From a virus: 64,000 bases of DNA. Location of the stretch: IMG/VR virus record IMGVR_UViG_3300045988_060821, positions 80,819 to 144,818 of that record, one strand, 5' to 3'. The notes below the pieces were generated by a model. It saw nothing but the letters and a program-made list of their open reading frames with translations. It made no database searches and was not told the DNA's origin. The position numbers and the translations under genes are program-made. Of the stretch, positions 6,399-63,707 are shown piece by piece (position 1 is the stretch's first letter; each line of letters starts with the position of its first letter).

Positions 6399-6411
6399 GG
6401 AGGGATAAATA

Positions 6412-7243
6412 ATGCCGAGTGCTTCTCTTACTTTTGTCAGTGCAAGTCGTTCTAGTGTGCAAATTGAGTATGATGGAAGTGGGTGGAATATCCCTGCCAA
6501 TGGGCCTGAACACAGTTCTGGATGGTCTACTATAACAAGTACTGATACTAGACAAGTTCAGTAGAAAACTGTCACTCAGGTAGTTTATGATGTTGCTGGT
6601 TGTACTACTACTTGGCATTGGAGTTTTAGTGGTGGTAATGGTGGTTCTAGTTCTGTTAAGACTGAAACCATTACCATTGGTGGAATGACAGCAGGATCGA
6701 GAGGTAGTGTCACAGGAAGGCTCTCAGCTACAAGAAGTGCAAAACAAAAAAAAGAAGTTTATACACGCACTCGAACTCGTACTAAAACGACAGTAAAAGA
6801 TGATAAAGGAAATACTACTACTAAGTATGGAGAGTGGAGCGATTGGAGTGAATCGGGTCCAAGAACAACATATAGCTCTGCTAGCAGTAAAAATTTAGGC
6901 TCTGCATCTGATACTTTGGTATTTTATACTAAGCCAGCTGAGTTTTCATGGGGTAGTGGTGTAGACACTGATAAAACTATTTAGGTATCTGGTGGACTTT
7001 CAGCTAGTAAGTGGAATACCTTGGTTGCTAGAGTAGAATAGCGGAAGAACTGGGAAAATTAGTCTGGCAGAGCTAATTATAGTGATGCGGAGGTTAGCTC
7101 TGGTGAATTAGTAACAGCCGCTAAATATAATATTTTAGCTAGAGCACTTGGCGTAAGCCAAGTGACAGCACACACAGATAGAACTACCGGTACACTTATT
7201 ACTGCTAGCGTATTTATTGCATTATAGACTGCGGTTAATGCAT
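6412..7243 (+). CDS. Ser/Thr-rich virion-associated protein (about 277 aa) with recoded TAGs; the stop is TGA.
   Basis: SD box TAAGGAGGG then ATG at 6412. Piece 6685-6984 is in the same frame. TGA at 7241-7243. Confidence 0.5.
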
Positions 7244-7261
7244 GAGCTAAAGGAGATAACC

Positions 7262-7623
7262 ATGTTAAATAAAGATATTGTCACGATGTACCGTGGGTTA
7301 ACAAGCTTGGCTTCCGATCTGGAAACCAAGCTTCCCGCGAAGGTATCATTTGCTATTGTTAGGAATATTAAGCTTTTAACTCCTATTGTTGAAGATATTG
7401 ATTTTGCTCGTCAATCAGTTGCAGCAACTTATGGAGTAGAAGTCGATGGTGGATACAGTATTCCTGAATAGCAAATAGATACAGTTAATTAGGAGTTAAC
7501 TGCGATTGCGGAAACAGAAGTTGATGTTCCTATTGTTAAAGTTAAAATGTCAGATATTGAGAACTTGAATATCTCTGTTGGTATCGCAGAAGCTCTTGAG
7601 TTTATGATAGAGGAAGAGGTTTA
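7262..7623 (+). CDS. Small structural-module protein (about 120 aa, 2 recoded TAG).
   Basis: SD box AAAGGAGATAACC then ATG at 7262. TAA at 7621-7623 sits inside a terminator hairpin. Confidence 0.45.
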
Positions 7624-7647
7624 AGTCTCTTCCTCTTTTCTTTTTGC
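7609..7647 (+). terminator. Rho-independent terminator (GAGGAAGAGG / CTCTTCCTC stem, T-run).
   Basis: 10-bp inverted repeat followed by TTTTCTTTTTGC. Confidence 0.65.
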
Positions 7648-7721
7648 TTGGACGGATTTAATTATCTTAACCAAAGCAATTTTTATAATATATAGAGTTA
7701 GAGAAAAAGGAGGCGCGGAAT

Positions 7722-16210: not shown

Positions 16211-16850
16211 GCTCTACCTGTTCTAGCTCCTCTAAAGAAGCTGCTCCATAAATAGAGATTTTATACTACTGCATTTGACGATACATTGGATATACAGCCG
16301 CAGAGATGGACATAGACAATGCAACAAGATTTTCTAATGTCCAAGGCTAGCACTCTTCGTGTCGAGCGTGCCATTCCAGAATTGGAGATTCAATACCTGC
16401 CTGAACGGCGATCTGATATTGACTTAAGTTAAGACTAATCTCAGATTGATCCTCCATTGTAACTCCATATTCTTTTCCATCTGTCCATGTTAATGGATGA
16501 GAAGCAAGATACTCTGCGAAAAGTAGCTTGTTCTTCTCTTGCTTAAGCTCTTTAGCTTCATCTAAACTATAACGATAAACAAAACTCTGAGTTTCATTGT
16601 CGAACTTATATAGATTAGGTGTAACATTGGATGGAATTTCTTCAACTTCGATAACGCGAACTGCGTTAGGAGAGTTGATTGTATCAGCTTGAATTAAGAC
16701 ATAATGAGTGTCGCAATCAGAGCCAATAACCCCAGTGCCTTCTTCTTCTGAACAGGCAACGACAATACCATTGGAAGATTGCAGTTTAATGTAACGAAGA
16801 TTGTCGAGAATATCAACTACAATATTCCCACGATTTAATAATACATACAT
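16194..16850 (-). CDS. Hypothetical protein (about 218 aa, 3 recoded TAG). Its ATG overlaps the RT stop (TAATG).
   Basis: ORF 16347-16850 continues through TAG at 16347-16349 to TAA at 16194-16196. It is translationally coupled to the RT. Confidence 0.45.
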
Positions 16851-18115
16851 TACTTTATTTCAACTCCTTTGAATAGTGAACGAAAATAATTATCCATATC
16901 TTGGATAATATAGAAGCTAGATCCTTTAGCGATATGTGCTCTCCAACCTTGATAAGATTTCTGAATTTCTTCAGTAGGAATTTTACCTTGTTGCCATAAA
17001 GCAGCCATTTTACGCAATTTTCTGCGCTAATGAACAATCTTTTTCTTAAAAGGTATCTAGATTACATGATTTGTAGTAGTTAAATAGAAATTCCATTTAA
17101 GATACTTAAATGGAGTGCCATGAACCTTATCTTTAGGTGCGATAGGGGTAATGCGCGAGATAGTGGTTTTCTTCTAGTTAAGAGTAAGACCTATATCTTT
17201 TAATTTCTTCTCTATCTTAGCTTTACATTCTGCTAAGTATTTGCTATCGTTACATAGAAGATAAGAATCATCCATGTAGCGTCCATAATACTTAATATGT
17301 AATTCTTCTTTAATGAAATGGTCAACTTCGTTCAAAGCTAGCAATGCAAATAACTGTGATGTCTAACTGCCTAGTCCAAGACTTTTAGCTTCACACTCAT
17401 AATATTGATGATGCGGCCGGAAAGACTGGATATCCGCAGGTATATATTTTCTACCTTTAGCAATATAATACTATTTGCCCGGAATTGGATGCTTATCTTT
17501 TGTTAGCTTAAAAGAAAATGTATCAATTAGGTATGAGCATAATTCATAGACTTGAGGATCTTTAATAACACGCTTAGCGATTTCTTTAAGAGCCTCATGG
17601 TCGATAGAATCAAAGTATTTACGAATATCAATTCGTAAAGCAAAGAAATCGTTTCCTAATCCGTACTCTCTATGAGCCATCTGTAAATGTTTCTTTGCTC
17701 TTGCTAAAGCAAAATCTATACCTCTATTTTTAAGCGTTGCATAGTTATCATAAATAAACTTAGGAGTTAATTCTGGTAGTAAGCTCTATTCACATAGGGC
17801 ATTTTGTACCAGTCTGTCGTTGATATGACACGCTCTTATATCTCGTGGCTTACCTCGTTCAATGATTGAGAAACAACTAAACACAAGCTGCTTGTATTCA
17901 CAAGCTCGCAAATCGGCTTCTGTTTGTAAGATTGTTTCAATTCTATTCTCTTCAAAATTGATTGTACTATCTTTCCATCGAACATTTCGACAAACTCGAT
18001 AAGAGGAATCATATAATGCGTCAAAACTACAAAAACGCTCGAAAGATGTCTACTACTAACTCAACTTCTTTCTCCTTATCATACAGTAATAGCGGTCACT
18101 TCGCGAGTTCCGCAT
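16850..18115 (-). CDS. Diversity-generating-retroelement reverse transcriptase (about 420 aa), read through about 9 recoded TAG codons.
   Basis: The frame of ORF 17471-17680 carries the RT motif-2 sequence FDSIDH (RIDIRKYFDSIDHEAL). Extending that frame through TAG codons gives YYGRYMDDSYLL (YxDD catalytic motif) and GLTLNQKKTTI downstream. The gene ends at TAA 16850-16852. Confidence 0.85.
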
Positions 18116-19076: not shown

Positions 19077-20852
19077 TTAATTACCAATGACGAAAGCCGG
19101 CGCGAGGCCAAAGCTGTCGTTGTAGCGGCCGTAGTACGCGTTCCCGCTGCCGGTGATAAGGCACACGGCGTTCGAGTAGCTGCAGTAGCGCGAGCGCTCC
19201 CATGGATAACCGTAGCTACTTGTGGATGTATCTCCTAAATACATGATGCGTGTAGCATTACTGGTATAATAACTATACGCAAAATTCTTACCCTAAGTAC
19301 ATTCTGCTTTTGATGTAGTAGAATTGGCAATAGAAAGAGGAGAATAAATATCAAGACCAAATTCTCTTTCAGAAAGCAAGAATACTGTTTCGTCATTATA
19401 AGTTACATTTTGATTTCTGTCACCATAATTGGGGCAAGTACCTTTTTTAATTGTCTTAATGGCTGCTTTACCGGGGAAGGCATTATAGTAATTTTGACAC
19501 AGGCTTCTAGCTGTAGAACCAATCCAAGCTGCATTACTACCAAAAGTAGTATATTGACTTAAACAGTTTTTAGTCTGGAATGTAACTGTATTATTAGCAT
19601 CTTGATCTACGCCAATAACTCTAATTAAGTGAGTAGTAGTACCTAAAACTGCGCTTGAAAGCGTTACAGATTTAGTTGTACCAAGAATGGCACCACCGCT
19701 ACTAGTCTTAATAGATGTACCAGTATGAGAAGCAAGATAGTTCTTTAGTCCCGTAAACCATGCTGCATCAACAGTACCACCATCAGCGCCCCAAGACCAA
19801 TATTCTGCGCTAACGGTAATTGTCTTATTGGCAGGAGCAGTATGGTTAGTACCTGCGGCGACACTAATAGTAATAGTTTTTGCGGAAACCGCAGTAGAAC
19901 CATTACCTTTAATGGTAAGAGTATTGCCATTAAGAGATAGTGTTAAACCAGAAATACTAGTAGGACTGTAGCTAATAGCGCCATCACCGGTGCGAGTAAT
20001 AGTAACAGCTACACCGGAACTATAGTTATTACCATTAATAGCTACTGTTGTTGGGTTTACATTCAAACTACCTGTTGCTTTGTTGATTGTCCAGTTGACA
20101 TTAATTGCGGTGGTCGTTCCGTCCGTCCAGCGATAATTGCTTCCTGGTGTAAAGGTAGCAATATAAGTGCCAGCATTAGTTGCAGATGTTGTGCCACCGA
20201 TAGTCATGTAACTAGCATTGTAGTTATTCCAATAACTGGTGCTACTAACAGATTGCGCGCTTCCAGTATATGTAAGATTACTCTTCCACGTAGGTTTAGC
20301 TACAGACTTACGATTGACTGTGACATTAAAAGTCGCAGTTTGAGTAATTCCATTTTCTGTGTAGCTAACTGTAACTACTTGATTTCCAACAGTTGAGAAA
20401 GTTGTTGGAGAACAAGAGTAACCAGTTACAGTTTTAGTTTGAGAATCGGAATAACTAGCTGTTACTACCATTCCCGTGGTAACAAGAGTATCTCCATACT
20501 CATAAGTCAACTTATTGGGTTTAGTAGTTACAGCAATCGTGGAGAGCCTATGCGTGACTGTGACTGCTAGAGTCGTAGTGCAAGTTTCTCCGCCCTCAGA
20601 GTAGGTGATGGTTACGGAAGTAGTACCATCAGTTAAGACGCTAGGGGATACAGAATATCCACTAACTTCTGCGGTTGCTAGAACCGCTTGCCCAGTACCA
20701 TAAGATGCGGTAACGACCATACCGGCGCTATTGAAGCTGTCGCCCGCAAGATAGCTGGTCTTAGTAGGCTTAGTGGTGACTTCGATCTTCATAAGAACGA
20801 TGCCGCTTCCTCCACCTTTTCCGCCTTGCTCAGCTAAAATACACTTAGGCAA
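19077..20852 (-). CDS. DGR target protein (about 591 aa): Ig-like (BIG2-type) repeats followed by a C-terminal C-type-lectin/FGE-like variable domain. One recoded TAG at 19293-19295.
   Basis: Strong SD box GAAGGAGG then TTG at 20852 (alternative ATG at 20792). ORF 19293-20996 reads through the TAG to TAA at 19077-19079. The VR occupies the last ~35 codons. It carries repeated VTASY...TVTV Ig-like modules. Confidence 0.8.
19097..19196 (-). repeat. DGR variable repeat (VR) at the 3' end of the target gene. It includes an invariant GC-rich 14-bp 3' element (TGGCCTCGCGCCGG on the coding strand; IMH-like).
   Basis: See the TR entry. The VR codons encode RSRYCSYSNAVCLITGSGNAYYGRYNDSFGLAP. Confidence 0.85.
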
Positions 20853-23472: not shown

Positions 23473-23856
23473 ATGCCAGAAATTGTGATTCAGATTATCC
23501 AGGTATGTGTTATTCCTTTGCTCGGTATTTTAACTAAATATCTCGTTGACTACTTGACTGCTAAGCGCAATGAGATTAACTCTAAGACCGATAATGAGAC
23601 TGCTCAGAAGTACACTAATATGATTTATCAGACTGTTGTTGATTGCGTTATTGCAACCAATCAAACCTATGTAGATAGCTTGAAGAAATCTGGAAGCTTC
23701 GATGAAGCAGCTCAGAAGGAAGCATTTAACCGCACAATGAACGCTATTATGACTATTCTAAGTGACGATGCTAAGGAATATATTACCGAGGCTACAGGTG
23801 ACTTAAATACTTATCTCACTCAGTTAATTGAGGCTGAAGTCAATAAGCGCAAATAA
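23473..23856 (+). CDS. Small membrane protein with one N-terminal TM helix and an amphipathic tail (possible holin or anti-holin-like).
   Basis: 127 aa. Hydrophobic segment IVIQIIQVCVIPLLGILTKYLV. Followed by a terminator. Confidence 0.35.
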   Translation: MPEIVIQIIQVCVIPLLGILTKYLVDYLTAKRNEINSKTDNETAQKYTNMIYQTVVDCVIATNQTYVDSLKKSGSFDEAAQKEAFNRTMNAIMTILSDDAKEYITEATGDLNTYLTQLIEAEVNKRK

Positions 23857-27437: not shown

Positions 27438-27917
27438 TTACCAAGCGCATTTATTCTTCTTGATATGATGAGTTCCAATGCATACAGCATCCGCAATATC
27501 CTAGATAACATGGATACCATAATTCTATTCTACATAGAGTTGAGCATTCTTTTTCTATTCTGCTCTTGTTCGACCTTTAATACCTAAAGTAGATTTCCAA
27601 GACGAGGCGAGGACTGTTGAATGAGGAATCTGGATTTCTTGCAGTAATTCTGAAACAACTCCATAAACCTCTGCCAAGACCTTAAAGGTCTAAACATTAT
27701 TAGCCACATTGTTCTGTTGCTAAATATCTTCAAAGATTACTTCGTCGATATTATAATCTGTAACTAAAGTCTAAATACCCTATCGTAACTAAACTAGTCT
27801 AATATCGGTATTTGGATCATCTAAAGAAATCTTGCCGTAGGACTTTAACTTTCCATCTTCAAAGATAGCCCATCCCGTAACCTTCGAGGCTTGGTCAAGG
27901 GCTAACAAGCGACTCAT
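27438..27917 (-). CDS. RuvC-like Holliday-junction resolvase (159 aa) with 7 recoded TAG codons.
   Basis: N-terminal MSRLLALDQASKVTGWAIFEDG... and C-terminal ...IADAVCIGTHH (RuvC motifs). It is invisible in the ORF track because of the TAG density. Its ATG overlaps the dUTPase stop (TAATG). Confidence 0.7.
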
Positions 27918-28480
27918 TACTTACTTGTAGAACCGAATCCACCTACGCGCTCGCCTGTCGCGGCATCATCATCGGTTACTCCATACGTATGAATAATTCC
28001 TTGTCCGATCTTATCTCCACGCTTAAGTTGAATAGCAAAAGGAGAAAGGTTGATAATCTGGAAGAAGATTTCGCCCTCATTGTCGGGATTATCGCAATAG
28101 TCGGCGTCGATAATACCAATACTGTTGCCGATAATCAGCCAATGTTTAAGAGGAGTAGAACTGCGGGCGCTCAGTTCGAGATACTGACCAGGCTCAAGAT
28201 GACACTTCATACCAGTAGATACCAGAGGAATCTTGGCTTTAAGTTCCTTAGTAAGAGCTGCCATTTCATCAAGAGAAAGTGGATCAATGAAACCATAGAA
28301 GTCTTCGTGGCGTTCTTTCTCAAATAAGTCATCCTGAATCTTGGTTCTTAGAAAATCATATGGAGGAATCACAATATCCTCTGCGACTACAAAATCATAA
28401 CCCGCGGAATTGGCGGTTGCACGAGTCGGTAGAGGTAGATCAACATCCGCGAAGCGAGAAACTTTCTCAAATTTAACCAT
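27917..28480 (-). CDS. dut: dUTPase / dCTP-deaminase-family protein (about 187 aa).
   Basis: GIIDADYCDNPDNEGEI... and the Gly-rich C-terminal motif GERVGGFGSTSK. SD box GGAGGA then ATG at 28480. Confidence 0.75.
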   Translation of the reverse strand: MVKFEKVSRFADVDLPLPTRATANSAGYDFVVAEDIVIPPYDFLRTKIQDDLFEKERHEDFYGFIDPLSLDEMAALTKELKAKIPLVSTGMKCHLEPGQYLELSARSSTPLKHWLIIGNSIGIIDADYCDNPDNEGEIFFQIINLSPFAIQLKRGDKIGQGIIHTYGVTDDDAATGERVGGFGSTSK

Positions 28481-28724
28481 TATCTGTATCCTCCATATTG
28501 ATAGGCATAACCCCTTCAGGGTCTTTCTCATTGTCGATAGTAATAGTAGCAGTCACAAGCTGATACTCTTCAACAATCTCGCCCTTTGCCTTAATATATT
28601 TAGTAACGTACTTAAAGGAAGTTAGCTCGCCAATACAGTTCTTGTCAAGCCACTTCCGCAGACGAAGAGCATCTTCGACAGTAGGCACGCGATACACATT
28701 CGTTGTTTTCAAAGTATACATCAT
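28473..28724 (-). CDS. Small hypothetical protein (83 aa).
   Basis: Intact ORF; its stop overlaps the dUTPase start. Confidence 0.35.
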   Translation of the reverse strand: MMYTLKTTNVYRVPTVEDALRLRKWLDKNCIGELTSFKYVTKYIKAKGEIVEEYQLVTATITIDNEKDPEGVMPINMEDTDNG

Positions 28725-38629: not shown

Positions 38630-39394
38630 TTAACTTATGAAGTAATTATATGCAGCAATAGCATTTTGCTGTCGCGTATAATAGCTCCCAGAACCGCACC
38701 TCTCATAGCATTTAGCAAATGCTAGAGCAGCGCTCTTAATGTCGGTTAAATCCAAGAAACTATTGTAATCAAAGTTTCTCTTATAAACATAACCGAATGT
38801 ATCGAACTCGTACTCAATAGTATCTCGCAGATAGTCGCATTGCTCTTCTAACGAGGCTCCCCATACATTTGAGTAGGCTTTATTCCATTGACATATACCA
38901 TAATATCCGTTACCAGAAATCGTGGCTTGAATGTCTAATGTGTTACCTCCAGTTTCAGCCATTATATTACCAAGAATGCCAGCGCAAACTTGGTTACTGT
39001 AGCCCAGATCTTTGAAGTAGGTCCATATATAAGTAGCTGTTGGGTACTCTTCTTCTTTTTGATGCCAATGTTCCATGAGTTGGTCATATACACTTTGATA
39101 TTTCAGTCTCAAAGCATTTGCATCAGCGTGTTCTTGTTTTGCTAATACAATGACGTCATGGTCTTCACTATAGCCTAGCTATCTAGCAGCTTCAGCCATT
39201 TGATGTGCGGCGTTCATATTCGAGATTTGTTCCGCAATAAGCTCAATCAATGTATCCATATCATCAAGAGTATAACTAACAGTTTCGTTATACGGCACGG
39301 AATAAGCTTGAGCAGTGACCGCTAGGCCATAGCTACATCCGCATAAAGACAATATAATGATTAAACTTGTGATAACTTTAATAAAACGACTCAT
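38630..39394 (-). CDS. Lipoprotein with a lysozyme-like (phage tail lysozyme family) peptidoglycan hydrolase domain (about 254 aa, 1 TAG at 39179-39181).
   Basis: N-terminal lipobox signal IIILSLCGCS. Pieces 39179-39394 and 38630-39112 share a frame and are joined by TAG. Motifs GILGNIMAETGGN and GICQW. Confidence 0.6.
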
Positions 39395-48451: not shown

Positions 48452-48763
48452 TCAGTTATCGTCTCCCACAGTATTTGTGTATCCTACAATGTTGAATTGA
48501 TTGAGCCAGCTATCTAGTTCATCAATAACAGCAATACATTTCATACCTCTAGCTTTTGTTAGAAAATATCCATAGCTAATAAATCCTAAATTTTGCGGTA
48601 GATTACGCTCTTTTGTTAACTCTAAGAACTTTTTAACCATCAGTTGAGGATGTTGAGTAACAAAGAGTACCATCTTATCAGGATACTTATGTGCTAAATC
48701 ATTTGCGTAGTACATTAAGCTAGTTGTCTTACCTGCACCACGACTTGCAATTACCTTAAACAT
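48452..48763 (-). CDS. Small P-loop NTPase/kinase-like protein (103 aa).
   Basis: Walker A SRGAGKTT. SD box GGAGG then ATG. TGA abuts the thyA-like ATG. Confidence 0.4.
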   Translation of the reverse strand: MFKVIASRGAGKTTSLMYYANDLAHKYPDKMVLFVTQHPQLMVKKFLELTKERNLPQNLGFISYGYFLTKARGMKCIAVIDELDSWLNQFNIVGYTNTVGDDN

Positions 48764-49680
48764 TATGAACCTCCACGAGTTCCATTCATACCTAGTTCTT
48801 TAGTCTTATAGAACTCAATCCAATAAGTCTCTCGTTCATTTAACTAATCTCTAGGCACTTCTTCCAAAATCTCAAATATAAAATTATATTGACCAGATTT
48901 TTGCATCGCCTAATATAACTTATTAGTCACAGGTCCGTATGCTAAAGAGGTTTTAATGTGCTGTCTAAAACGCTCTTTAATATCAACAGACTAACCAATA
49001 TAAGCCTAACCAGTTGTTAGATCGGTAATTTTATAGATACCGCATACTTTACCTTTATTAGTGGCAAATAGATGCGTCATAAGAATATCATATGCAGGAC
49101 GATAATAGGTCTCCCATATTACTTTATCAATGATTTCCTTTTTCACAAAGTGAATTTGCAAATCACGCAATAGAGTAATATCGTTCAAACTAAATTCATC
49201 AATAGCAAGACGATAATAGTCCTAATCTGCGGCAATTGCTTCTTGGCGTTGCTAAGCCTAGATATAAGATAACTATTTAGCTTCCAATTCATGGAGTTTA
49301 TCTTGCTAATGTGAGATTTGATTAGTTATCTATTGAAGTTCTGCTAAATGATATTTTTCTTTAGCTTGATATGTTTCATCAAGCTCTTTACTTTTCTTTT
49401 CAAATTGAGCCTTAGCGCTCTCTTCTGCTCGCTATTCAGCGCTTTCCCGCAACTTATTCGCAGTATCAGTCAAAGAATTGACAATTTCATTATGTGATAC
49501 AATATCTTCTTTTACTTTTGCTAATTCTCTCTATTTCAATGCAATATCTTGTTCAATGCGTTTATTCTCTTCTTGTCTTTCTTTATTTATCAATACTACC
49601 TAAAGCCGATTATTGCGAAGATATAAAACATATCCGATCAGCGCAAGAATAACCAAGCCTGATAATATATAATAAATCAT
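48763..49680 (-). CDS. Membrane-anchored coiled-coil protein with a C-terminal GIY-YIG nuclease domain (about 305 aa, 15 or more recoded TAG).
   Basis: The frame of ORF 49006-49188 extends both ways through TAGs. The N-terminus is a TM helix MIYYILSGLVILALIGYVLYL, then about 180 aa of Q/E/K/A-rich coiled-coil. The C-terminus reads KVCGIYKITDLTTG-Q-AYIG-Q-SVDIKERFRQHIK...YNFIFEILEEV...ERETYWIEFYKT...GMN (I-TevI-like catalytic core). TAA at 48763-48765. Confidence 0.6.
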
Positions 49681-49729
49681 AAGTAAAAGAAATCGGTAAG
49701 AGGCATAATCCTCTTACCGATCTAATTTA

Positions 49730-49993
49730 TTACTCCTGGGCGTCAGGATCGAAAGCCAAGCCCTTATCAGTCAAGCGAAGATACTTAACTTTCTGATGGG
49801 AGCCATCGGCAAGCTCAACCTCAGCGGGCTCACGCACACCATAGTCCTTGCGCTGTAGAGCAGAGGTAAAAATACCATCAACCTGGCGCTTCTCAAGACC
49901 AAGAGCTTCAGCCACATCAGCGGCAGTTAGATCCTTGTCAGTATTGTCCTTTAGATAATCAAAAACCTTACGAGTATTTTCCTTCATAGCCAT
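49730..49993 (-). CDS. Small hypothetical protein (87 aa).
   Basis: Intact ORF; TAA stop. Confidence 0.3.
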   Translation of the reverse strand: MAMKENTRKVFDYLKDNTDKDLTAADVAEALGLEKRQVDGIFTSALQRKDYGVREPAEVELADGSHQKVKYLRLTDKGLAFDPDAQE

Positions 49994-56702: not shown

Positions 56703-57026
56703 TTAAATGGTTGCTTCATCCTCGACTACTTGCTGCTATTGTTTCTCACACATAGCTAAATCATAAGTAATCCCACCCTTGCGGTGATCGGATTTACTCA
56801 TGTTTAAGTAAAAAGAGCAAACAATACCATGCGCAGACCATGGCAATCCTACTAATGCACTAATCCATGGGAGAGTACCCAGATAACCAAGATGTACGCA
56901 ATAGAAAGCAAGAGCAATACCGGAGATAGTTACAATCCACAAGAGAGAGCGAATGTCGCAAATAAGCTATTTAGAAAATTCTTTTTTCTAGCTATGTTTT
57001 CCTTTTCCTCTTGTTTGACGACCCAT
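56703..57026 (-). CDS. Holin-like small membrane protein (about 107 aa, 2 TM, charged termini). Its ATG overlaps the endolysin TAA (TAATG); 3 recoded TAG.
   Basis: ORF 56736-56942 extends upstream through TAGs to an ATG at 57026 and downstream through TAG 56736 to TAA 56703. Two hydrophobic helices, located immediately after the endolysin. Confidence 0.45.
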
Positions 57027-58432
57027 TATTGACCACTCTTTTCAGCATAACGCTTTAGAACAGCCGCAAATTCGCCACGAGTCATAAAGCGTTTTGGCAT
57101 CAACTGACCTTTTTCATTGCCATTGATTAAGCCATTAGCCTGTGCCCAAGTCATTGCGTCTTGCTCCCAGGTGACTGGTTGCGCAGCGAGCTGACTAAGA
57201 TATACATTCATCATTTCATTGAATTTTTCTTGAGTCATGTCTTCATCATCCTCCTCGATAACTTTAGACTGCATTAAAGCAGCAACATCTTTGCGAACGG
57301 TTGTCATATCTTTGCCATATTTCTTGAACCAATGGTATACATCAGCATGGTTACTACCGAGGCCCAACTGATAGCTATCTTGATGGCAGAGAATGGTTGG
57401 AACTGTTACGCCATTTACATTTACAGAACCATTTGGATTGATATTATATGTCTTACATAAGTAGGCTGTCAATTCGCAAGCCTCTTTGTAGACTTTAGCG
57501 AAGTAATCGGGGTCACTTAGATTGTCTTCGCAGATTTCAAACTGAATCCATCCAGTATTACAGCTACCTTTAGAGCCTGAGCCGCAACCCCAAGGTCTAT
57601 AATTCCAAGGTAGTGTTTGTACTGCGGCTACGCTTCCGTCAGCAAGAGCACCAATCCAAGCGTTTACACCAGCCTGCTATGAGCTATGATTCCAATCGGT
57701 TCTACTGGTATTTTTACCAATTTTAGTAATCAGAGATTGATAGTTCTTGTCGTTCTCAGACGGTTGAACATAACGCTTAATAGTTTTATTATTGGCGCCT
57801 GTACTGTGCCAGAGGACGCCTTTAATATCCATCTTGCGGGTTTGCTTATAACAAGTGCTATTAGTCATCATGCAAACCAATGGGTGATTAGCGTTTGAAT
57901 ATTTCATCTTAGCTATTTCCTCCTTTTGCGTTGAATAAATATTGAAGTAACGTTGGCTATATAACGCACGCTATTTTAGTGTGCTAGAGCTCTGATCTGC
58001 CGGTCTTTCAAACTGAGTGACCACCAAATTAGATGCTTCTTCAACAGATGAGGTAGTCTTCAAGATTTTTAATAGCTAGGAGTAACTTGTAGTTAGTTCC
58101 TGATATAAAAAATCTAGTTGGGTGTTTAAGTCACCAATAGACTTTCCTCGACTTTTACACAGCTAAAACAGACCTTGCTTGCGGCTCCAATATGTCCATT
58201 GAGCTAAACCATATCCCGCAGAATCATGCGTGAAATTGGTATAGGAGCCGTTATCAACAGCCGCAGTATACGAGGCATCGTTCATTCCTAACTTACTCTC
58301 ATATGAGTTCTATAAGTTAGTTGGAATAAGTCCGCTTTCCGCGAATAGATTCCCCATTAGACCTGCGGCACCGCAGTTACTTAATCCTTTTGATTTGAGA
58401 TAATCCCAAATAACTTGAGCATTATCCGCCAA
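57026..58432 (-). CDS. Three-domain endolysin: N-terminal lysozyme-like (phage tail lysozyme family) domain, central Amidase_2 (N-acetylmuramoyl-L-alanine amidase) and C-terminal SLH cell-wall-binding domain. About 468 aa with about 6 recoded TAG.
   Basis: One frame runs from TTG 58432 (SD box GGAGGTGAGG) through pieces 57677-57907 and 57026-57472. N-terminal domain motifs AGLMGNLFAESG...GYGLAQWT...FERP. Amidase_2 motifs LWHSTGANN...NAWIGALADGSV...GWIQFEICE...ILCHQD. SLH domain W..DAMTWAQANGLINGNEKGQLMPKRFMTRGEFAAVLKRY. Confidence 0.8.
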
Positions 58433-59867: not shown

Positions 59868-60021
59868 TTATATTAGCTTTAATAAGTTCTGTAATAGCAC
59901 TTATAATTTCACTAATACTATTGAGTGTAAGGTGGCACCTACTGTGATAAGGAGAACTCCAATTAAAATATTTACCAATAAAACCACCTCTTATGTTATT
60001 ATAATAAATAAGAGAAGTTCG

Positions 60022-60486
60022 TTAATTATTATCGGCCTTCTGTCTAAAGCGTTTGACAGATTCAATAGCTTTATCTTGACCAAGAATATATTTATGTAAC
60101 ATATTTTTCTCTTTATCAAGAGCCTCTTTAAGTGCGTCGGCTCTATATTTGCAGCGCATCATATTTCGATTAAAAGCGCCTAATGGGTCCACTTCCGCAG
60201 GAGTTTTAACGCCAAGACCTAATACCTCTTGATAAAACTGATTGCGGACATTAAACTTATCTCTCTCTTGCTTATAAAAATATTCAAGGGCTTCAATTCT
60301 TGCTTTTGATAGAGCAATATTATATCCAACTTTTTTAGAGTAGAAACCTTCATCACCCTTACTTAGTACAGCAGCGCCATGAAAAGTATGCCCTTGATAG
60401 CAAATCTTTACATTGGTGATACCTTCTTCTTCCCAATAATCTTTCATAATCACAGGAGCTTTATATATAGCTTTAACCAAATTCAT
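60022..60486 (-). CDS. Hypothetical protein (154 aa).
   Basis: Intact ORF only. Confidence 0.3.
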   Translation of the reverse strand: MNLVKAIYKAPVIMKDYWEEEGITNVKICYQGHTFHGAAVLSKGDEGFYSKKVGYNIALSKARIEALEYFYKQERDKFNVRNQFYQEVLGLGVKTPAEVDPLGAFNRNMMRCKYRADALKEALDKEKNMLHKYILGQDKAIESVKRFRQKADNN

Positions 60487-60666
60487 ATAGTTTTGTTCTC
60501 CTTATTTAATTCTTTATCTATATGATAGCAAAATTTTATAGATAAATCAAATTTGCCCTATTTCTCCGAAAAATTTGCTGGGCCTATGTGCGCGGAAACT
60601 CGGAGATCGACGATGCTAGCGACAAAAAAAAAAGAACCGCGCTCTTACGAACGCGGTTCTTCAAAA

Positions 60667-62163
60667 TTACTCCTTATTGGAGGAGTCTGCCAACTTGCCA
60701 CCGAGGAAACCGGTGAGCAAGGTTTTCACATCAATACCGAGGGATTCGCTCAGTCCCTCAGAAACCTGAGCGACATTCTTGATAATGTTGCCAGACAGCT
60801 TGCTGGTGTCATCACCGAACATCACAATCTTGTCAACATTGGTGTACGCCTGACCGGTAGCCTGAGCAATAGCAGGCAACTGCTGGAAGTACAGCTTGAG
60901 GGCTTCCATCTGCATATCCATCTTGGCGGCTTCGCCGTACTGCTTCATAGCTTCTGCTTTCTTCATAAGACCTTCGGCTTCTGCCTCAGCCTTAGCCTGA
61001 ATCGCGGCAGCCTCAGCTTCACCACGAGCCTTAGTAGCCGCAGCTTCTGCCTCACCCTGAACACGAACAGCTTCAGCCGTAGCACGCTGGGCTTCAGCTC
61101 TTTGCTCTGCCTCAAAGCGCTCGGCTTCCGCAGTCTTCTGACGCTCATACAGGTCTGCCTCAGACTGCTTCTGAGTAGCGTACAGCTTAGCATCAGCTTC
61201 CTGCTGAGCAGCATACTTCTTAGCTTCCGCGGTCTTCTTGACCTCAGCCTCCAGAGCACGCTCCTTAATGGCAACTTCGCGCTCCTTCAAGTCGATTTCC
61301 TTTTCCTGACGAGCAATGTCAGCATCTGCCGCAGCCACATCACGCAGTTTACGCTGGTTCTCAGACTCAATCTCCATAGCAGCATTAGCCTGAGCCTGCT
61401 TGGTATCAGCTTCCTGCTTCAACTGAGCCTTCTGAATAGCCAGACTATTGTTGCGCTTGGCAATCTCTTCCTCAGCCTTTACGCGGGCATCATTAGAAGC
61501 CTTAGCGTTCTCAGCCTCGGCAACCGCAATCTCACGCTGGGCATTAGACTTAGCGATTGCGGCGTCCTTACGGATCTGCTCGACGTTATCAATACCAAGG
61601 TTGGTGATAACATCATTGTCGTCAGAGAAGTTCTGGACATTGAAGGAAACCAGTTCCAGACCGAAACGAGCCAGATCAGGCACAGCATTTTCCTGCACCT
61701 TTTCGGAGAATGCCTTGCGATCACCGACCATCTCGGTCAGCTTCATCTGACCCACAATCTCACGAATATTACCTTCCAGAAGGTCGTTAATCTTCTGTGC
61801 GATCTGATCGCGAGAGACATTTAGGAAGTTCTGAGCAGCAAGAGCAATCATCTCTTCGCTCTGACCCACGCGTACAGAAACGGTAGAATCGACTCGTACA
61901 TTGATGTATTCAGCAGTCGGCACGGCAGAGCCAGTCTTAACATCAATCTGAATGGCTCCTAGTGCCAGCTTATCCAGTCGCTCCAAGAAGGGAATCTTGA
62001 TGCCAGCCTTACCGACCAAAATACGAGGTTTCTTGTGCAGACCAGAAATGATATAGGCAACATCAGGTGGAGCCTTTACATAACCAGAAGCCAAGAGGGC
62101 GATAAGAGCAATAGCAATAATCACCGCAGGAACAAAAGGAAGAATAGTCATCAAAATTTCCAT
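60667..62163 (-). CDS. Flotillin-like SPFH/band-7 protein (498 aa; FloT/YuaG-like). No TAG, with a GC-rich coiled-coil.
   Basis: N-terminal TM anchor, SPFH domain, then a long Ala/Glu-rich (EA-repeat) coiled-coil typical of bacterial flotillins. SD box TTAAGGAG then ATG. Confidence 0.75.
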   Translation of the reverse strand: MEILMTILPFVPAVIIAIALIALLASGYVKAPPDVAYIISGLHKKPRILVGKAGIKIPFLERLDKLALGAIQIDVKTGSAVPTAEYINVRVDSTVSVRVGQSEEMIALAAQNFLNVSRDQIAQKINDLLEGNIREIVGQMKLTEMVGDRKAFSEKVQENAVPDLARFGLELVSFNVQNFSDDNDVITNLGIDNVEQIRKDAAIAKSNAQREIAVAEAENAKASNDARVKAEEEIAKRNNSLAIQKAQLKQEADTKQAQANAAMEIESENQRKLRDVAAADADIARQEKEIDLKEREVAIKERALEAEVKKTAEAKKYAAQQEADAKLYATQKQSEADLYERQKTAEAERFEAEQRAEAQRATAEAVRVQGEAEAAATKARGEAEAAAIQAKAEAEAEGLMKKAEAMKQYGEAAKMDMQMEALKLYFQQLPAIAQATGQAYTNVDKIVMFGDDTSKLSGNIIKNVAQVSEGLSESLGIDVKTLLTGFLGGKLADSSNKE

Positions 62164-62346
62164 GTGTTACTCCTTAATATATTAAATTGTTTTATTTATA
62201 AATCAATGCGTTAGCATTGTTTATCCGTAGTAGCCTCCATCGGGAGGATCTCGCTTATAAGATTTACAAAACCCAGGGATACAGCCACAATTAGGATAGG
62301 TATATATACATTTATTACATCTTATGATAGGGCTTGACTCTTCAAT

Positions 62347-62907
62347 CTACAGCTGCGCCTTACACTCCTCAACCTTCTCATTCATTTCCTTGATAACATC
62401 ATCAAGGAGAACAGGATAACACTCATGAGAGTCAACTCCTACATGGTACATAAATGGAATTTCATTGTAGAAGTTGGAGGTCTGATGGGTATGACCGAAA
62501 AGATTGCAAGTTACTTGCTTGAGGGACTCTTTCTCAAGGTTGCCGGTCAAAGTAGGATAATGAGAAGCATAGAAATGATACTTGCGGTAAGTGAAAGCAT
62601 AAGCGTCAAACACAGGAATACCAGTTCTAAGATAGGCTTCTCTACGATTAGGGGTATCATGGTTACCACCAACCACGAGTTTAAGACCATTCATGCGATT
62701 GAGTAAGGCAAGCCCCTCCTCAAGCTTATCAGCTCCGCCAAGCATGAGATCGCCGCAGATAATAAGTGTATCTTCAGGGGCCACACACTCATTATTCTTC
62801 TTTACGATAGTTTCATTCATCTCTTCAACGCTTTCAAAACCACGGGCTTTCCAGATGAACTCCTTATCGTGATTATAATGGTAATCTGATGATAGCCAAA
62901 TTTTCAA
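62347..62907 (-). CDS. Calcineurin-like metallophosphoesterase.
   Basis: Motifs D.H...GDL.D...GNHD. Confidence 0.7.
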   Translation of the reverse strand: MKIWLSSDYHYNHDKEFIWKARGFESVEEMNETIVKKNNECVAPEDTLIICGDLMLGGADKLEEGLALLNRMNGLKLVVGGNHDTPNRREAYLRTGIPVFDAYAFTYRKYHFYASHYPTLTGNLEKESLKQVTCNLFGHTHQTSNFYNEIPFMYHVGVDSHECYPVLLDDVIKEMNEKVEECKAQL

Positions 62908-62913
62908 TATAAG

Positions 62914-63618
62914 TCACTTCCTTTTAGGTGTTGTAATGGCTTCAATTCTCGACATTCCATTTTTCATACGCTTGTATACTGAATTTTTTGAAATATTATA
63001 AATGGAACACCAATCTTTGAAATTGTGAAATTCTCCATTGATTTCAATTAACTTGCTGGCTTCTTCTATGGGGATGTTATTTGGAATGATTTCCAGTGTT
63101 TCTGGATTATATTCCCTAAATATAAATCCCTTTACTGTTTTATATCTGTTACTACCGGATGCGCATTTTCTAATACTAGCTCTATCAGTTCCTAACTCAT
63201 GAGCTGCGGCAGTTATTGTAGGAAAAAATTTCTTTTCTCCACTTGTTTCTGAAATGGCACAAATGGGTGTTGCCAATTTAGCTCGTACTTCTGGATCATC
63301 AAACGGATATTCTGTGTTTAGAGTTTGATTATATCCATGCTAAGAGGTTAAGCTATTATATTCAATAATTGCATCATGCTCTAATTTATATCTTTCTTCT
63401 GGAGTTTGAATATCTTTTATTAAGATTTGAAAATCAAAATTCTCTATACCATATTTTCTTATGGCTCGATATAATGGATATTCATATCCTGCGCGAGATT
63501 CGAGACGAGCATTTTGCTAATGTTCATACCACCTTGTTGTAAATCCTCGTGACTAGTCACTGGAACCAATATAGGTTTTATGGTTAATCAGATTTTCGAT
63601 TTTATAAATGAAATACAT
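62914..63618 (-). CDS. Free-standing GIY-YIG homing endonuclease with C-terminal NUMOD/IENR-type HTH DNA-binding domains (about 234 aa, 3 recoded TAG).
   Basis: SD box GGAAGGTGATAAA then ATG at 63618. N-terminus MYFIYKIENLINHKTYIGSSD-Q-SRGFTTRWYEH...E..YN..L..GYN. C-terminal piece 62914-63276 carries KKFFPTITAAAHELG...VKGFIFREY HTH modules. TGA stop. Confidence 0.75.
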
Positions 63619-63707
63619 TTTATCACCTTCCATTTATAAATGGAAATTCTTACAGACTCTTTTATTACTTCTGACCTCATCTTTGATAGTCATTGAAAAA
63701 CTTATTC

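What the first reader, a model, noticed from the sequence alone, without database searches (positions are those of the whole stretch)
48763..49680. Unusual architecture: TM anchor, 180-aa coiled-coil and a C-terminal I-TevI-like GIY-YIG nuclease domain
Reading through 15 or more TAGs gives a protein whose N-terminus is a single TM helix, followed by a long Q/E/K/A-rich coiled-coil, with the GIY-YIG catalytic core (GIYKITDLTTGQAYIGQSVDIKERFRQH...YNFIFEILEEV...ERETYWIEFYKT...GMN) at the very C-terminus. There is no DNA-binding domain after it. Classical GIY-YIG homing endonucleases are the reverse (N-terminal nuclease, C-terminal DNA-binding). A membrane-tethered, coiled-coil-spaced nuclease in a phage replication block is not a standard homing endonuclease. 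It could act in host-DNA degradation, superinfection exclusion or counter-defence, or be a domesticated nuclease.
Basis: seen in the sequence. Interest (0 to 1): 0.7.

Follow-up and report, generated by a model that had tools for sequence, protein, structure and literature searches.

The report
Membrane-tethered, TAG-locked phage GIY-YIG nuclease
A gut-phage gene that is readable only if the stop codon TAG means glutamine encodes a DNA-cutting enzyme held on a long stalk at the inner face of the cell membrane. It is a conserved core gene of a large group of uncultured phages, is laid out like the bacterial defence nuclease SNIPE without being related to it, and its role is still untested.

Summary
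On the minus strand, 49680..48763 is a 305-codon frame with no TAA or TGA and 13 in-frame TAGs (not 15 or more). TAG alternates with CAA/CAG at invariant Gln positions in relatives. The protein has an N-terminal TM helix (1-21, N-out/C-in), a helical stalk of about 130 aa with heptad signal, a conserved 60-aa helical domain with no family match, and a catalytically intact I-TevI-type GIY-YIG domain at the extreme C-terminus. It is not a mobile homing endonuclease. 59 of 60 related phage loci found through a neighbouring gene carry it at the same place in the replication module, and standard-code relatives encode the same architecture without TAGs. In recoded lineages it is the TAG outlier of an almost TAG-free block (13/26 Gln codons against 7/303, p=9e-12). 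It follows a conserved terminator-like hairpin and lacks a Shine-Dalgarno site. The layout matches SNIPE (TM, stalk, middle domain, C-terminal GIY-YIG), but DUF4041 membership was tested and failed, so the resemblance is analogy. Best reading: a nuclease gated in space by the membrane tether and in time by the code switch, most likely cutting membrane-proximal DNA, probably incoming DNA. Function is inferred, not shown.

The parts
48763..49680 (-). Complete gene: 305 codons plus TAA stop. 13 in-frame TAGs are read as Gln.
   Evidence: frame and TAG positions. (full-length homologues). (public gene calls give the same 305-aa product with Q at the TAG positions; P0125 differs at 3 residues).
49618..49680 (-). 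N-terminal transmembrane anchor (aa 1-21). [quoted passage not shown]
   Evidence: it is the only hydrophobic segment. In 36 of 36 family members there is no K/R before the TM and 1-5 K/R in the 15 residues after it (positive-inside rule). Topology is inferred, not measured.
49228..49617 (-). Helical stalk or coiled coil (aa 22-151). Variable in sequence and length across the family (121-237 aa).
   Evidence: a single helix 2-151; local heptad a/d contrast z=3.7 (0 of 1000 shuffles), family median z=4.3; no G or P, 48% E/K/R/D/Q; dN/dS 0.04-0.34.
49045..49227 (-). Conserved small helical middle domain (aa 152-212; conservation starts at about aa 128). Motif DFYRL..(D/E)I..LR......K.IWE.YY. No match to any known family.
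   Evidence: conservation. (no Pfam hit). (no match to DUF4041). (found only in fragments of this same family). (allelic divergence island).
48766..49044 (-). C-terminal I-TevI-type GIY-YIG nuclease domain (aa 213-305) with an intact catalytic set.
49600..49602 (-). First in-frame TAG (codon 27), just after the TM helix. Under the standard code the product would be a 26-aa membrane peptide. The other TAGs start at 49533, 49434, 49332, 49308, 49275, 49260, 49254, 49224, 49008, 48993, 48912 and 48846 (high coordinate of each codon).
   Evidence: coordinates. (TAG/CAA/CAG interchange, for example at invariant Q230 of YIGQS). (median first TAG codon 31 in 26 recoded lineages; TAG enriched towards the 5' end).
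49690..49723 (-). Intrinsic-terminator-like hairpin (14-bp stem followed by a T-tract). It ends 10 nt before the ATG. There is no Shine-Dalgarno site.
   Evidence: scan. (same structure with different sequence in L005 and L008, i.e. compensatory changes). (best SD match 2/6, against 5/6 or better for most neighbours). (family-wide: upstream 70 nt median -18 against -8.6 kcal/mol, p=9e-23).
49730..49993 (-). Conserved upstream neighbour: an 87-aa predicted winged-helix protein with no TAG. It is the last gene before the hairpin.
   Evidence: a homologue lies immediately upstream of the nuclease gene in most divergent loci; in phage phAss-1 it is immediately downstream; only a weak Pfam hit. The winged-helix assignment is my reading of the sequence.
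48452..48763 (-). Downstream 103-aa mini P-loop protein. Its ATG overlaps the nuclease stop (TAATG) and it has its own GGAGG.
   Evidence: overlap and SD. (the same 1-nt overlap in relatives). (weak nSTAND_NTPase5 match over the Walker A region). Not universal in distant lineages.

Best explanation
Shown or strongly supported: this is a real, vertically inherited core gene of a clade of large (about 100-200 kb) uncultured phages of gut Firmicutes. It encodes a single-pass membrane protein. A very short N-terminus lies outside. A 20-35 nm helical stalk, a small conserved helical domain and a catalytically intact but DNA-binding-domain-less I-TevI-type GIY-YIG nuclease lie in the cytoplasm.

Inferred mechanism: the nuclease has no sequence-reading domain, so its specificity comes from gating.
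(1) Spatial gate. The tether confines the active site to a shell a few tens of nm under the membrane, away from the bulk of replicating phage DNA.
(2) Temporal gate. In TAG-recoding lineages the gene carries 8-24 in-frame TAGs, the first just after the TM helix. It also sits behind a terminator-like hairpin without a Shine-Dalgarno site. Full-length protein can therefore be made only after the phage has switched the cell to reading TAG as Gln, together with virion genes, lysis genes and the RuvC-like resolvase.

Favoured target (speculative): DNA crossing the membrane, that is, genomes of superinfecting phages. This would be a phage-borne functional analogue of the bacterial SNIPE nuclease, switched on only once the phage's own genome is safely inside.
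For: Reality and coding:
- 305-codon frame with 13 TAGs and no TAA/TGA.
- TAG interchanges with CAA/CAG at invariant Gln positions.
- dN/dS 0.04-0.34 in the stalk and 0.06-0.08 in the nuclease.
- Standard-code relatives have 0 TAG and the same architecture.

Core gene: 59 of 60 loci retrieved through the neighbouring YorF-like gene carry it 1.3-3 kb upstream. The order gyrB-gyrA-ligase-wHTH-nuclease-...-YorF-AAA_24-YorH-DnaB holds down to 27% identity.

Membrane and stalk.

Temporal gate:
- 13 of 26 Gln codons are TAG, against 7 of 303 in the other 26 genes of the block (p=9e-12).
- The same contrast appears in every recoded lineage, up to 24 of 36.
- TAG positions turn over, yet TAG is enriched at the 5' end (0.50 to 0.26 by fifths; first Gln codon is TAG in 15 of 26 lineages against 9.3 expected).
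- Hairpin and missing SD.
- The other densest TAG gene in the window is also a nuclease, the RuvC-like resolvase.
- Literature precedent: in Agate phages a GIY-YIG intron endonuclease inside an early gene is preferentially recoded, read as delaying nuclease production (10.1101/2021.08.26.457843).

SNIPE analogy:
- SNIPE has the same order of parts and the same topology. Its tether prevents self-cleavage and it cuts DNA during injection (PMC13190303).
- Among phages 94-100% identical across the surrounding 9 kb, the segment coding the middle domain and most of the nuclease domain is the most divergent spot (79-85%). This fits a specificity-bearing surface.
Against: - Nothing is experimentally shown: nuclease activity, membrane insertion, oligomeric state and timing are all inferred.
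- The 'TAG means late' rule comes from other phage clades in the literature. The window holds no suppressor tRNA.
- High TAG content could reflect mere absence of selection against TAG in a late gene rather than a selected lock. The 5' bias is modest (15 against 9.3 of 26).
- The middle domain is not DUF4041, and the nuclease belongs to a different GIY-YIG branch from SNIPE's. The SNIPE mechanism therefore cannot be transferred by homology.
- Exclusion and defence genes are usually accessory and variable. This one is near-universal and fixed inside the replication and nucleotide-metabolism block, which fits a role in the phage's own DNA metabolism at least as well.
- Superinfection exclusion is classically an early function.
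- The middle domain has net charge -2, so DNA binding by it is unsupported.
Confidence: 0.4

Rival explanations
1. Host-DNA degradation or nucleotide salvage, like T4 endonuclease II (DenA). The nuclease nicks or cuts the host chromosome to feed the adjacent thymidylate synthase, DHFR, dUTPase and RNR pathway. The tether limits damage to phage DNA.
Against: A salvage nuclease is needed early or in the middle of infection, whereas this gene is encoded like late genes. No DNA-modification genes that would protect phage DNA were seen in the 64-kb window, though only part of the genome is available. A membrane tether is not needed for, and would hinder, digestion of a whole nucleoid. T4 EndoII is soluble.
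Confidence: 0.2
2. Membrane-associated processing of the phage's own DNA late in infection. Examples are cutting or nicking replication or recombination intermediates or concatemers at a membrane-bound replication or packaging site. The protein would work with the RuvC-like resolvase class of late nucleases and perhaps with the neighbouring winged-helix and P-loop proteins.
For: It is a core gene of the replication module. Its TAG profile equals that of the RuvC-like resolvase. The winged-helix protein is a conserved neighbour and the mini P-loop protein is translationally overlapped. From my own knowledge, phi29 p16.7 is a precedent for a TM-plus-coiled-coil protein that organises phage DNA replication at the membrane.
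Against: No DNA-binding or structure-recognition domain is detectable. Allelic replacement of the middle domain and nuclease among near-identical phages is unusual for a housekeeping enzyme. The P-loop neighbour is not conserved in distant lineages.
Confidence: 0.12
3. Lysis-associated membrane protein: a spanin-, holin- or antiholin-like TM plus coiled-coil protein that carries a nuclease to clear DNA at lysis.
For: Weak PHROG matches of the N-terminal 90 aa to Rz-like spanins (E=0.009-0.02). The codon profile is late-type, like the endolysin and the 107-aa TM protein at 56703-58357. Borges et al. found a strongly recoded TM protein of the 'ATP synthase b / spanin / holin' type in lysis cassettes.
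Against: The gene is not in either lysis-gene neighbourhood of the window (23473-23856 holin; 56703-58357). The spanin matches are compositional and below significance. The predicted topology puts the stalk in the cytoplasm, not outside the cytoplasmic membrane where a spanin acts.
Confidence: 0.05
4. An ordinary free-standing GIY-YIG homing endonuclease (selfish mobile gene) with an unusual N-terminal extension.
For: The nuclease domain is closest to the I-TevI / group I intron endonuclease families. True GIY-YIG homing endonuclease genes do occur in these phages and are also TAG-rich. Examples are window 62914-63633 and genes inserted within gyrB or next to a truncated dnaB in L020 and L008.
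Against: It is present at the same site in 59 of 60 related loci. Divergence tracks that of the neighbours down to 27% identity. It has no C-terminal DNA-binding domain, it has a TM anchor, and it is under purifying selection along its whole length.
Confidence: 0.03
5. Artefact: the region upstream of the nuclease domain is non-coding read-through, or the gene is a decaying pseudogene.
For: Under table 11 the region is broken into pieces of at most 60 aa. The GenBank record of phage phAss-1 annotates its homologue as two fragments.
Against: The rest of the window is clearly TAG-recoded: 14 TAGs in a 1296-aa gene, 14 in a 913-aa gene. TAG equals Gln at invariant positions. dN/dS is well below 1. 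Standard-code orthologues are intact. The nuclease domain itself needs four TAGs read through.
Confidence: 0.01

Closest known systems
SNIPE (PD-lambda-1), the E. coli membrane-bound anti-phage nuclease (Vassallo 2022, PMC9519451; Saxton 2026, PMC13190303)
   Same: Same order of parts and same topology: an N-terminal single TM (N-out), an elongated helical region, a middle domain, and a C-terminal GIY-YIG-superfamily nuclease with nothing after it. The conservation gradient is also shared: nuclease most conserved, then middle domain, then a variable-length N-terminal region that resembles ATP synthase subunit b. SNIPE-family genes also occur in phage-like plasmid contexts, for example next to lambda ren/P genes in L012.
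   Different: There is no detectable homology outside the nuclease core. Pfam DUF4041/T5orf172 and PADLOC PD-Lambda-1 did not hit any of 67 members. Profile-profile comparison with five genuine DUF4041 proteins gave only a 48%-probability match over the first half of the GIY-YIG fold. The nuclease here is I-TevI-type. SNIPE is about 500 aa and a sporadic bacterial or prophage defence gene. This protein is about 305 aa, a core gene of a lytic-type replication module, and TAG-recoded.
I-TevI and group I intron / free-standing GIY-YIG homing endonucleases (TIGR01453, PF01541; PDB 1LN0)
   Different: The domain order is reversed and the linker, zinc finger and HTH DNA-binding module are absent. 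This protein has a TM anchor and stalk instead. It is not mobile (59 of 60 syntenic).
T4 endonuclease II (DenA; PDB 2WSH)
   Different: EndoII is a soluble 136-aa tetramer and an early gene that acts on unmodified host DNA (from my own knowledge). Sequence identity is only 15%.
Recoded intron endonuclease of Agate phages and the 'recoding times late and lytic genes' model (Borges et al., 10.1101/2021.08.26.457843)
   Same: A GIY-YIG-type nuclease gene embedded among standard-code early genes is preferentially loaded with recoded stop codons, interpreted as delaying nuclease production.
   Different: That case is a mobile intron endonuclease using TGA for Trp. Here the gene is a conserved membrane-tethered nuclease using TAG for Gln, with an additional upstream hairpin and no SD.
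Uzume defence protein UzuA (PADLOC PDLC03973) and phrog_26160
   Same: Both profiles are about 278 positions long with the GIY-YIG part at their C-terminal end. They match aa 211-299 here (E=4e-8 and 1e-6), so the nuclease is also C-terminal in those families.
   Different: Only the nuclease part aligns, and it scores lower than generic homing-endonuclease models (31 against 44 bits). I could not obtain a UzuA sequence, so the nature of its N-terminal 180 residues was not compared.

Membership tests
GIY-YIG nuclease superfamily (PF01541) | GIY and YIG motifs plus the catalytic Arg, His/Tyr, Glu and Asn in a beta-beta-alpha-alpha-beta-alpha fold | tested here: met
I-TevI-type homing endonuclease | N-terminal catalytic domain joined by a linker to a C-terminal sequence-specific DNA-binding domain | tested here: not met
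   The nuclease is at the extreme C-terminus (aa 213-305 of 305) and nothing follows it. By contrast, the true homing endonuclease gene at window 62914-63633 has the N-terminal GIY-YIG plus C-terminal HTH layout.
I-TevI-type homing endonuclease | Sporadic, mobile distribution: present or absent among close relatives, or inside introns or inteins | tested here: not met
   59 of 60 loci found through the YorF-like neighbour carry it at the same position. Synteny holds down to 27% identity.
SNIPE / PD-lambda-1 (DUF4041 family) | N-terminal membrane anchor with the bulk of the protein cytoplasmic | tested here: met
   By prediction only: a single TM at aa 1-21, and the positive-inside rule is satisfied in 36 of 36 members.
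SNIPE / PD-lambda-1 (DUF4041 family) | Central DUF4041 (PF13250) domain | tested here: not met
   No DUF4041 hit at E<=1 in 31 members or at E<=0.1 in 36 members. No PADLOC PD-Lambda-1 hit. hhalign of the family against five PGAP-annotated DUF4041 proteins gives no alignment of the middle domain.
SNIPE / PD-lambda-1 (DUF4041 family) | SNIPE-type C-terminal nuclease (GYVYIISN...KIGMTRR motif; E414 catalytic residue) | tested here: not met
   Only a 48%-probability, 16%-identity profile match over the first half of the fold. Same superfamily, different branch.
SNIPE / PD-lambda-1 (DUF4041 family) | Cleaves phage DNA during injection; a TM-less form is toxic | not testable with these tools
   Requires experiments of the kind reported in PMC13190303.
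Uzume (UzuA) | Full-length match to the UzuA profile | tested here: not met
   Only profile positions 182-276 of 278 (the nuclease part) match aa 211-299, at 31 bits. 27 of 36 members match in the same partial way.
TAG-to-Gln recoded phage gene (genetic code 15) | In-frame TAGs at positions occupied by Gln codons in homologues | tested here: met
   At invariant Q230, Q240 and Q136 the codons are TAG, CAA or CAG depending on lineage. Public gene calls give Q at these positions.
TAG-to-Gln recoded phage gene (genetic code 15) | Suppressor tRNA(CTA) encoded by the phage | tested here: inconclusive
   There is no tRNA in the 64-kb window, which is less than half of the roughly 148-kb genome. The relative phAss-1 has two tRNA-Sup-CTA genes about 400 nt downstream of its homologue.
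Rz-like spanin | Significant profile match and extracytoplasmic coiled coil | tested here: not met
   PHROG spanin families match only at E=0.009-0.02 over the TM and the start of the stalk. The predicted topology is cytoplasmic.

The most novel reading that the evidence does not exclude
An independently evolved, phage-encoded counterpart of SNIPE. It would be a core 'gate-keeper' nuclease that sits under the membrane and destroys DNA of later-arriving phages. Its production would be coupled to the phage's own genetic-code switch, by TAG codons starting right after the TM helix plus a terminator-like hairpin and no SD. The weapon would then appear only after the phage's own genome has fully entered and the suppressor tRNA is expressed. 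This would be the first case of code switching used to time a self-endangering nuclease that is not a selfish element. It would also be the first 'injection-site nuclease' that is a conserved phage gene rather than a host defence gene.
Probability: 0.25. Interest if true: 0.85.

Novelty: new variant of a known kind. Interest (0 to 1): 0.62.

Why it matters
If the reading is right, three things follow.

1. Spatial self/non-self discrimination by tethering a non-specific GIY-YIG nuclease to the membrane, just established for bacterial SNIPE, would have arisen at least twice from different GIY-YIG branches. It would also be used by phages themselves.

2. [quoted passage not shown] A single dangerous gene inside a standard-code early block is the recoding outlier in every recoded lineage, while its orthologues in standard-code relatives have no TAG.

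3. The family is large (736 clusters at 50% identity with E<=1e-30), abundant in human and animal gut metagenomes, unannotated, and split into fragments in at least one GenBank record because of the code. Recognising it improves annotation of a whole clade of gut Firmicutes phages.

Even if the target turns out to be host DNA or phage replication intermediates, a membrane-tethered core nuclease in a replication module is not described for any model phage that I know of.

Tried and rejected
I used P0001, which has 6 differences, as proxy.
- **Near-identical DNA in the phage collection:** none found. Protein searches with three family members found only phAss-1 beyond the nuclease domain, so no cultured phage with timing data is available.
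- **DUF4041/SNIPE membership.** I retrieved genuine DUF4041 proteins using a consensus recalled from memory as bait. The hits are validated by their PGAP annotation and by the invariant E414. Profile-profile comparison was negative for the middle domain, so membership is rejected.
- **A global 3.5-residue Fourier test on the stalk** was not significant (620 of 2000 shuffles). A local-register heptad test was significant. I therefore call it a helical stalk with coiled-coil propensity. The oligomeric state is unknown.
- **Foldseek against afdb50** was unavailable.
- **A profile search with the middle domain alone** returned only short fragments of the same family and no other effector fusions.
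- **L067** (a Bacillus chromosome hit), suspected to be Uzume-like, is an ordinary homing endonuclease gene next to a DnaB-like gene.
- **A first strict terminator criterion across the family** counted only 10 of 60, because MFE folds extended into the T-tract. It was replaced by a comparison of upstream folding energy against all other genes.
- **Suppressor tRNA next to the gene** was found only in phAss-1.
- **One script timed out** and was rewritten.
Full report
**1. What is in the sequence**

The feature lies on the minus strand. From the ATG at 49680 to the TAA at 48765-48763 there are 305 sense codons with no TAA or TGA and 13 in-frame TAGs, at residues 27, 50, 83, 117, 125, 136, 141, 143, 153, 225, 230, 257 and 279. 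No alternative start exists upstream in frame. Under the standard code the region breaks into pieces of at most 60 aa, and four of the TAGs lie inside the nuclease domain. A conventional short GIY-YIG gene therefore cannot account for the domain.

The window as a whole is a TAG-recoded phage. The large plus-strand genes at 1-15 kb carry 3-14 in-frame TAGs each, for example 14 in a 1296-aa gene and 14 in a 913-aa gene. No tRNA gene is present in the window.

**2. TAG is translated as Gln and the whole frame is coding**

A search of 5.8 billion proteins found 421 relatives. More than 100 are full-length (about 303-305 aa) at 53-98% identity. The closest cluster has 376 member sequences, and one of them, three residues different from the window protein, was seen on 351 contigs of up to 286 kb. 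Public gene calls on those contigs give the same 305-aa product with Q at the TAG positions.

In a codon alignment of 16 lineages, invariant Gln positions are TAG in some lineages and CAA or CAG in others. Examples are Q230 of the YIGQS motif, Q240 and Q136.

dN/dS against relatives is:
- 0.04-0.34 for the stalk;
- 0.10-0.16 for the middle domain;
- 0.06-0.08 for the nuclease.

Seventeen of 46 representatives (dereplicated at 90% identity) have no TAG at all and encode the same architecture in the standard code. Read-through of non-coding DNA and pseudogene decay are therefore excluded.

**3. Anatomy**

- Residues 1-21 are the only hydrophobic segment. In all 36 diverse members tested there is no Lys or Arg before it and 1-5 in the 15 residues after it. 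The positive-inside rule therefore puts the short N-terminus outside and the rest in the cytoplasm.
- AlphaFold2 with a 31-sequence alignment (mean pLDDT 83) gives one continuous helix 2-151, a small helical domain 153-204, and a beta-beta-alpha-alpha-beta-alpha domain at 214-291.
- The stalk has no Gly or Pro and is 48% E/K/R/D/Q. A global 3.5-residue periodicity test was not significant. A local best-register heptad test was: z=3.7 with 0 of 1000 shuffles, and a family median z of 4.3.
- Stalk length varies from 121 to 237 aa across the family.
- Conservation is low in the stalk and very high from about residue 128 to the end.
- The nuclease matches Pfam GIY-YIG (E=5e-8), TIGR01453 'group I intron endonuclease' (E=5e-19) and PHROG homing-endonuclease families.
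- Y216, Y227, R237, H241, E284 and N299 align with I-TevI Y6, Y17, R27, H31, E75 and N90 and are invariant.
- The protein ends six residues after N299.
- The middle domain (motif DFYRL..D/E-I..LR....K.IWE.YY) matches nothing in Pfam, NCBIfam, PADLOC or the PDB. A profile of it retrieves only short fragments of this same family.

**4. It is a core gene, not a mobile one**

In close and distant relatives the order is gyrB, gyrA, (small gene), ligase, (small gene), 87-aa winged-helix protein, this gene, a 91-103-aa P-loop protein overlapping by one base, ThyA+DHFR or ThyX, then YorF-like, AAA_24, YorH-like and DnaB. The same order holds in most of 37 loci from metagenome-assembled genomes, down to 27% identity.

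To avoid ascertainment bias I searched IMG/VR with the neighbouring YorF-like protein. Of the 60 loci with enough upstream sequence, 59 carry a full-length member 1.3-3 kb upstream.

Full-length members were found only on contigs of 2.8-172 kb (the larger ones phage-sized) binned with gut Firmicutes such as Eubacterium, Oscillospiraceae, Lachnospiraceae, Bacilli and Erysipelotrichaceae. None was found in Mb-sized chromosomal contigs. AGGAGG-type ribosome-binding sites in the window agree with a Firmicutes host.

An HMM search of 1.84 billion cluster representatives gave 736 clusters at E<=1e-30, mostly full-length at 290-380 aa.

The only relative in the annotated phage collection is the metagenomic phage phAss-1 ('Caudoviricetes code 15 clade'; PMC10607447). 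Its 326-aa homologue is annotated as two fragments. It lies after gyrB/gyrA and just before the winged-helix gene and two tRNA-Sup-CTA genes.

**5. The most informative feature: it is the TAG outlier of a TAG-free block**

In the minus-strand replication and nucleotide-metabolism block 29352-56561, the other 26 genes together have 7 TAGs against 296 CAA/CAG. This gene alone has 13 against 13 (odds ratio 42, p=9e-12). At 4.3% of codons it is the second most TAG-dense credible gene of the window. The first is the RuvC-like Holliday-junction resolvase at 27438-27917 (8 TAGs in 159 codons), which sits next to a TAG-free dUTPase.

The contrast recurs in every recoded lineage examined: 8, 8, 15, 16, 12, 10, 11, 16 and up to 24 of 36 Gln codons, with mostly 0-2 per gene in the flanks. 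TAG positions are mostly not shared between lineages, so the state is maintained by turnover.

TAG is enriched towards the 5' end:
- 0.50 of Gln codons in the first fifth of the gene against 0.26 in the last fifth;
- the first Gln codon is TAG in 15 of 26 lineages against 9.3 expected;
- the median first TAG is at codon 31, just after the TM helix.

Conventional GIY-YIG homing endonuclease genes in these phages are also TAG-rich.

Borges et al. proposed that recoded stops keep late and lytic genes silent until the code switch. They noted exactly such a case for a group I intron endonuclease inside an early gene of Agate phages. That recoded codons mean 'late' is taken from that literature and is not shown for this clade.

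**6. Further signs of restrained expression**

A 14-bp-stem hairpin followed by a T-tract lies at 49723-49690 on the coding strand and ends 10 nt before the ATG. The same structure with a different sequence is found in two other lineages. The gene has no Shine-Dalgarno match (2/6), whereas most neighbours have 5/6 or better.

Family-wide, the 70 nt upstream fold with a median of -18 kcal/mol against -8.6 for 932 other genes in the same loci (p=9e-23). An SD of 5/6 or better is present in 23% against 48%. This holds in standard-code lineages too. phAss-1 is an exception, with a promoter-like TGGTATAAT and AAAGGAGG. Whether the hairpin terminates or attenuates transcription is inferred from its form only.

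**7. Comparison with SNIPE**

Membership was tested and failed:
- No DUF4041, T5orf172 or PD-Lambda-1 profile hit in 67 members.
- I fetched five genuine DUF4041 proteins. One is an E. coli protein of 500 aa with the invariant E414 that SNIPE's E414A mutation targets.
- Profile-profile comparison gave only a 48%-probability match over the first half of the GIY-YIG fold and nothing for the middle domain.

The resemblance is therefore analogy (it works like SNIPE), not family membership. The PADLOC UzuA (Uzume) profile and phrog_26160 match only over the nuclease.

**8. A local divergence island**

Among IMG/VR phages that are 94-100% identical to the window over most of the surrounding 9 kb, the segment 49400-48800 drops to 79-85% in a subset (L083, L087, L095, L106). 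This segment covers the end of the stalk, the middle domain and most of the nuclease domain, and it is the lowest value in the region. Against L083 the stalk has dN=0.006 but the middle domain has dN=0.26. The protein alignment shows stalk types and middle-domain types recombined in different combinations. Allele swapping of this module inside one phage species fits a surface that meets a variable partner. It is not proof.

**9. Interpretation**

Shown or strongly supported: a real, recoded, vertically inherited gene for a membrane-anchored, stalked, catalytically intact GIY-YIG nuclease that lacks any recognisable DNA-recognition module.

Inferred:
- The enzyme's specificity comes from where and when it exists.
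- The tether restricts it to a thin sub-membrane shell.
- The TAG codons, hairpin and missing SD restrict it to the recoded (late) phase.

The target is not known. I favour DNA entering through the membrane, that is, superinfection exclusion as a SNIPE-like mechanism reached independently. The architecture has now been shown to work that way in bacteria, and the variable stalk and swapped middle-domain alleles suggest partner-specific interactions. I assign this whole statement 0.4.

The main counter-argument is that the gene is near-universal and fixed in the replication and nucleotide-metabolism module. That fits host-DNA breakdown for nucleotide salvage, like T4 EndoII (0.2), or late processing of the phage's own DNA at the membrane (0.12). 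A lysis-linked role (0.05), a mobile homing endonuclease (0.03) and an artefact (0.01) are unlikely for the reasons given above.

**10. Novelty and score**

Each ingredient is known: GIY-YIG nucleases, a membrane-tethered GIY-YIG nuclease (SNIPE), and recoding as a timer including for a nuclease. What I did not find described in the literature searched is the following combination. It is a large, unannotated, phage-core family that re-creates the SNIPE layout from an I-TevI-type domain and a new middle domain. It is also the recoding outlier of its genomic block in every recoded lineage.

I rate it a new variant of a known kind, with interest 0.62. It would surprise specialists moderately. It also offers a clean experimental handle on two current questions: spatial self/non-self discrimination by nucleases, and the function of phage code switching.

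Noticed in passing
window 27438-27917 (-), next to 27917-28531 (-): A RuvC-like Holliday-junction resolvase (PHROG E=1e-16) has 8 in-frame TAGs in 159 codons, the highest density of any credible gene in the window. The adjoining dUTPase has none. Together with the target and the homing endonuclease genes, this suggests nucleases as a class are preferentially TAG-loaded in this phage.
   Followed up: partly
window 62914-63633 (-): A conventional GIY-YIG homing endonuclease (239 aa, N-terminal nuclease plus C-terminal HTH/NUMOD-like region, 3 TAGs). It is a useful internal contrast to the reversed architecture of the target.
   Followed up: partly
window 16850-18115 (-) and 19077-20792 (-): A reverse transcriptase gene (PHROG E=2e-84, 9 TAGs) lies near a 571-aa Ig-like/repeat-rich protein. 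This may be a diversity-generating retroelement. Template and variable repeats were not searched for.
   Followed up: no
window 56703-57026 and 57026-58357 (-); also 23473-23856 (+): An endolysin (5 TAGs) preceded by a 107-aa TM protein (3 TAGs) sits at the end of the replication block. A separate holin-family gene at 23473-23856 has no TAG. This is unexpected if recoding mainly times lysis.
   Followed up: no
window 38630-39394 (-): A 254-aa protein with a lipoprotein signal (lipobox LCGC) lies in the middle of the replication genes, between the Dda-like helicase and the RecJ-like exonuclease. It could be another envelope-acting or exclusion factor.
   Followed up: no
window 60000-62400: This is the most GC-rich stretch of the window (46%). 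It holds a 499-aa TAG-free ORF on the minus strand (60667-62166) with no PHROG match. The longer plus-strand ORF overlapping it translates to low-complexity sequence and is probably spurious.
   Followed up: partly
L011 (phage phAss-1, OQ749652.1) 6434-7414 and 7809-7977: The GenBank record annotates the homologue as two separate hypothetical proteins because of TAG codons. Two tRNA-Sup-CTA genes lie about 400 nt downstream on the same strand, so there the nuclease gene and the code-switch tRNAs may be co-transcribed.
   Followed up: partly
L020, L008, L038: In relatives, GIY-YIG homing endonuclease genes lie within or next to gyrB or dnaB: between two gyrB fragments in L020, beside gyrA in L038, and after a truncated dnaB in L008. 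They are themselves TAG-rich (2-7 TAGs in 227-229 codons), echoing the Agate-phage case in the literature.
   Followed up: no
L041 about 5480-8700 (contig binned as Melainabacteria): Three tandem paralogues of the family (352, 304 and 348 aa; 3-6 TAGs each) lie in a different gene context. This looks like a local expansion, as seen for arms-race genes.
   Followed up: no
window 48800-49400 compared with L083, L087, L095, L106: Two alleles of the middle domain and nuclease coexist in otherwise 94-100% identical phages (79-85% identity locally). Stalk and middle-domain types occur in recombined combinations.
   Followed up: partly
L012 (E. coli plasmid CP061260.1) 1102-2604: A DUF4041 protein with the invariant E414 (a likely SNIPE or close homologue) lies next to lambda-type ren and replication protein P genes on a 280-kb plasmid. 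SNIPE-family genes thus sit in phage-derived replication regions too.
   Followed up: no
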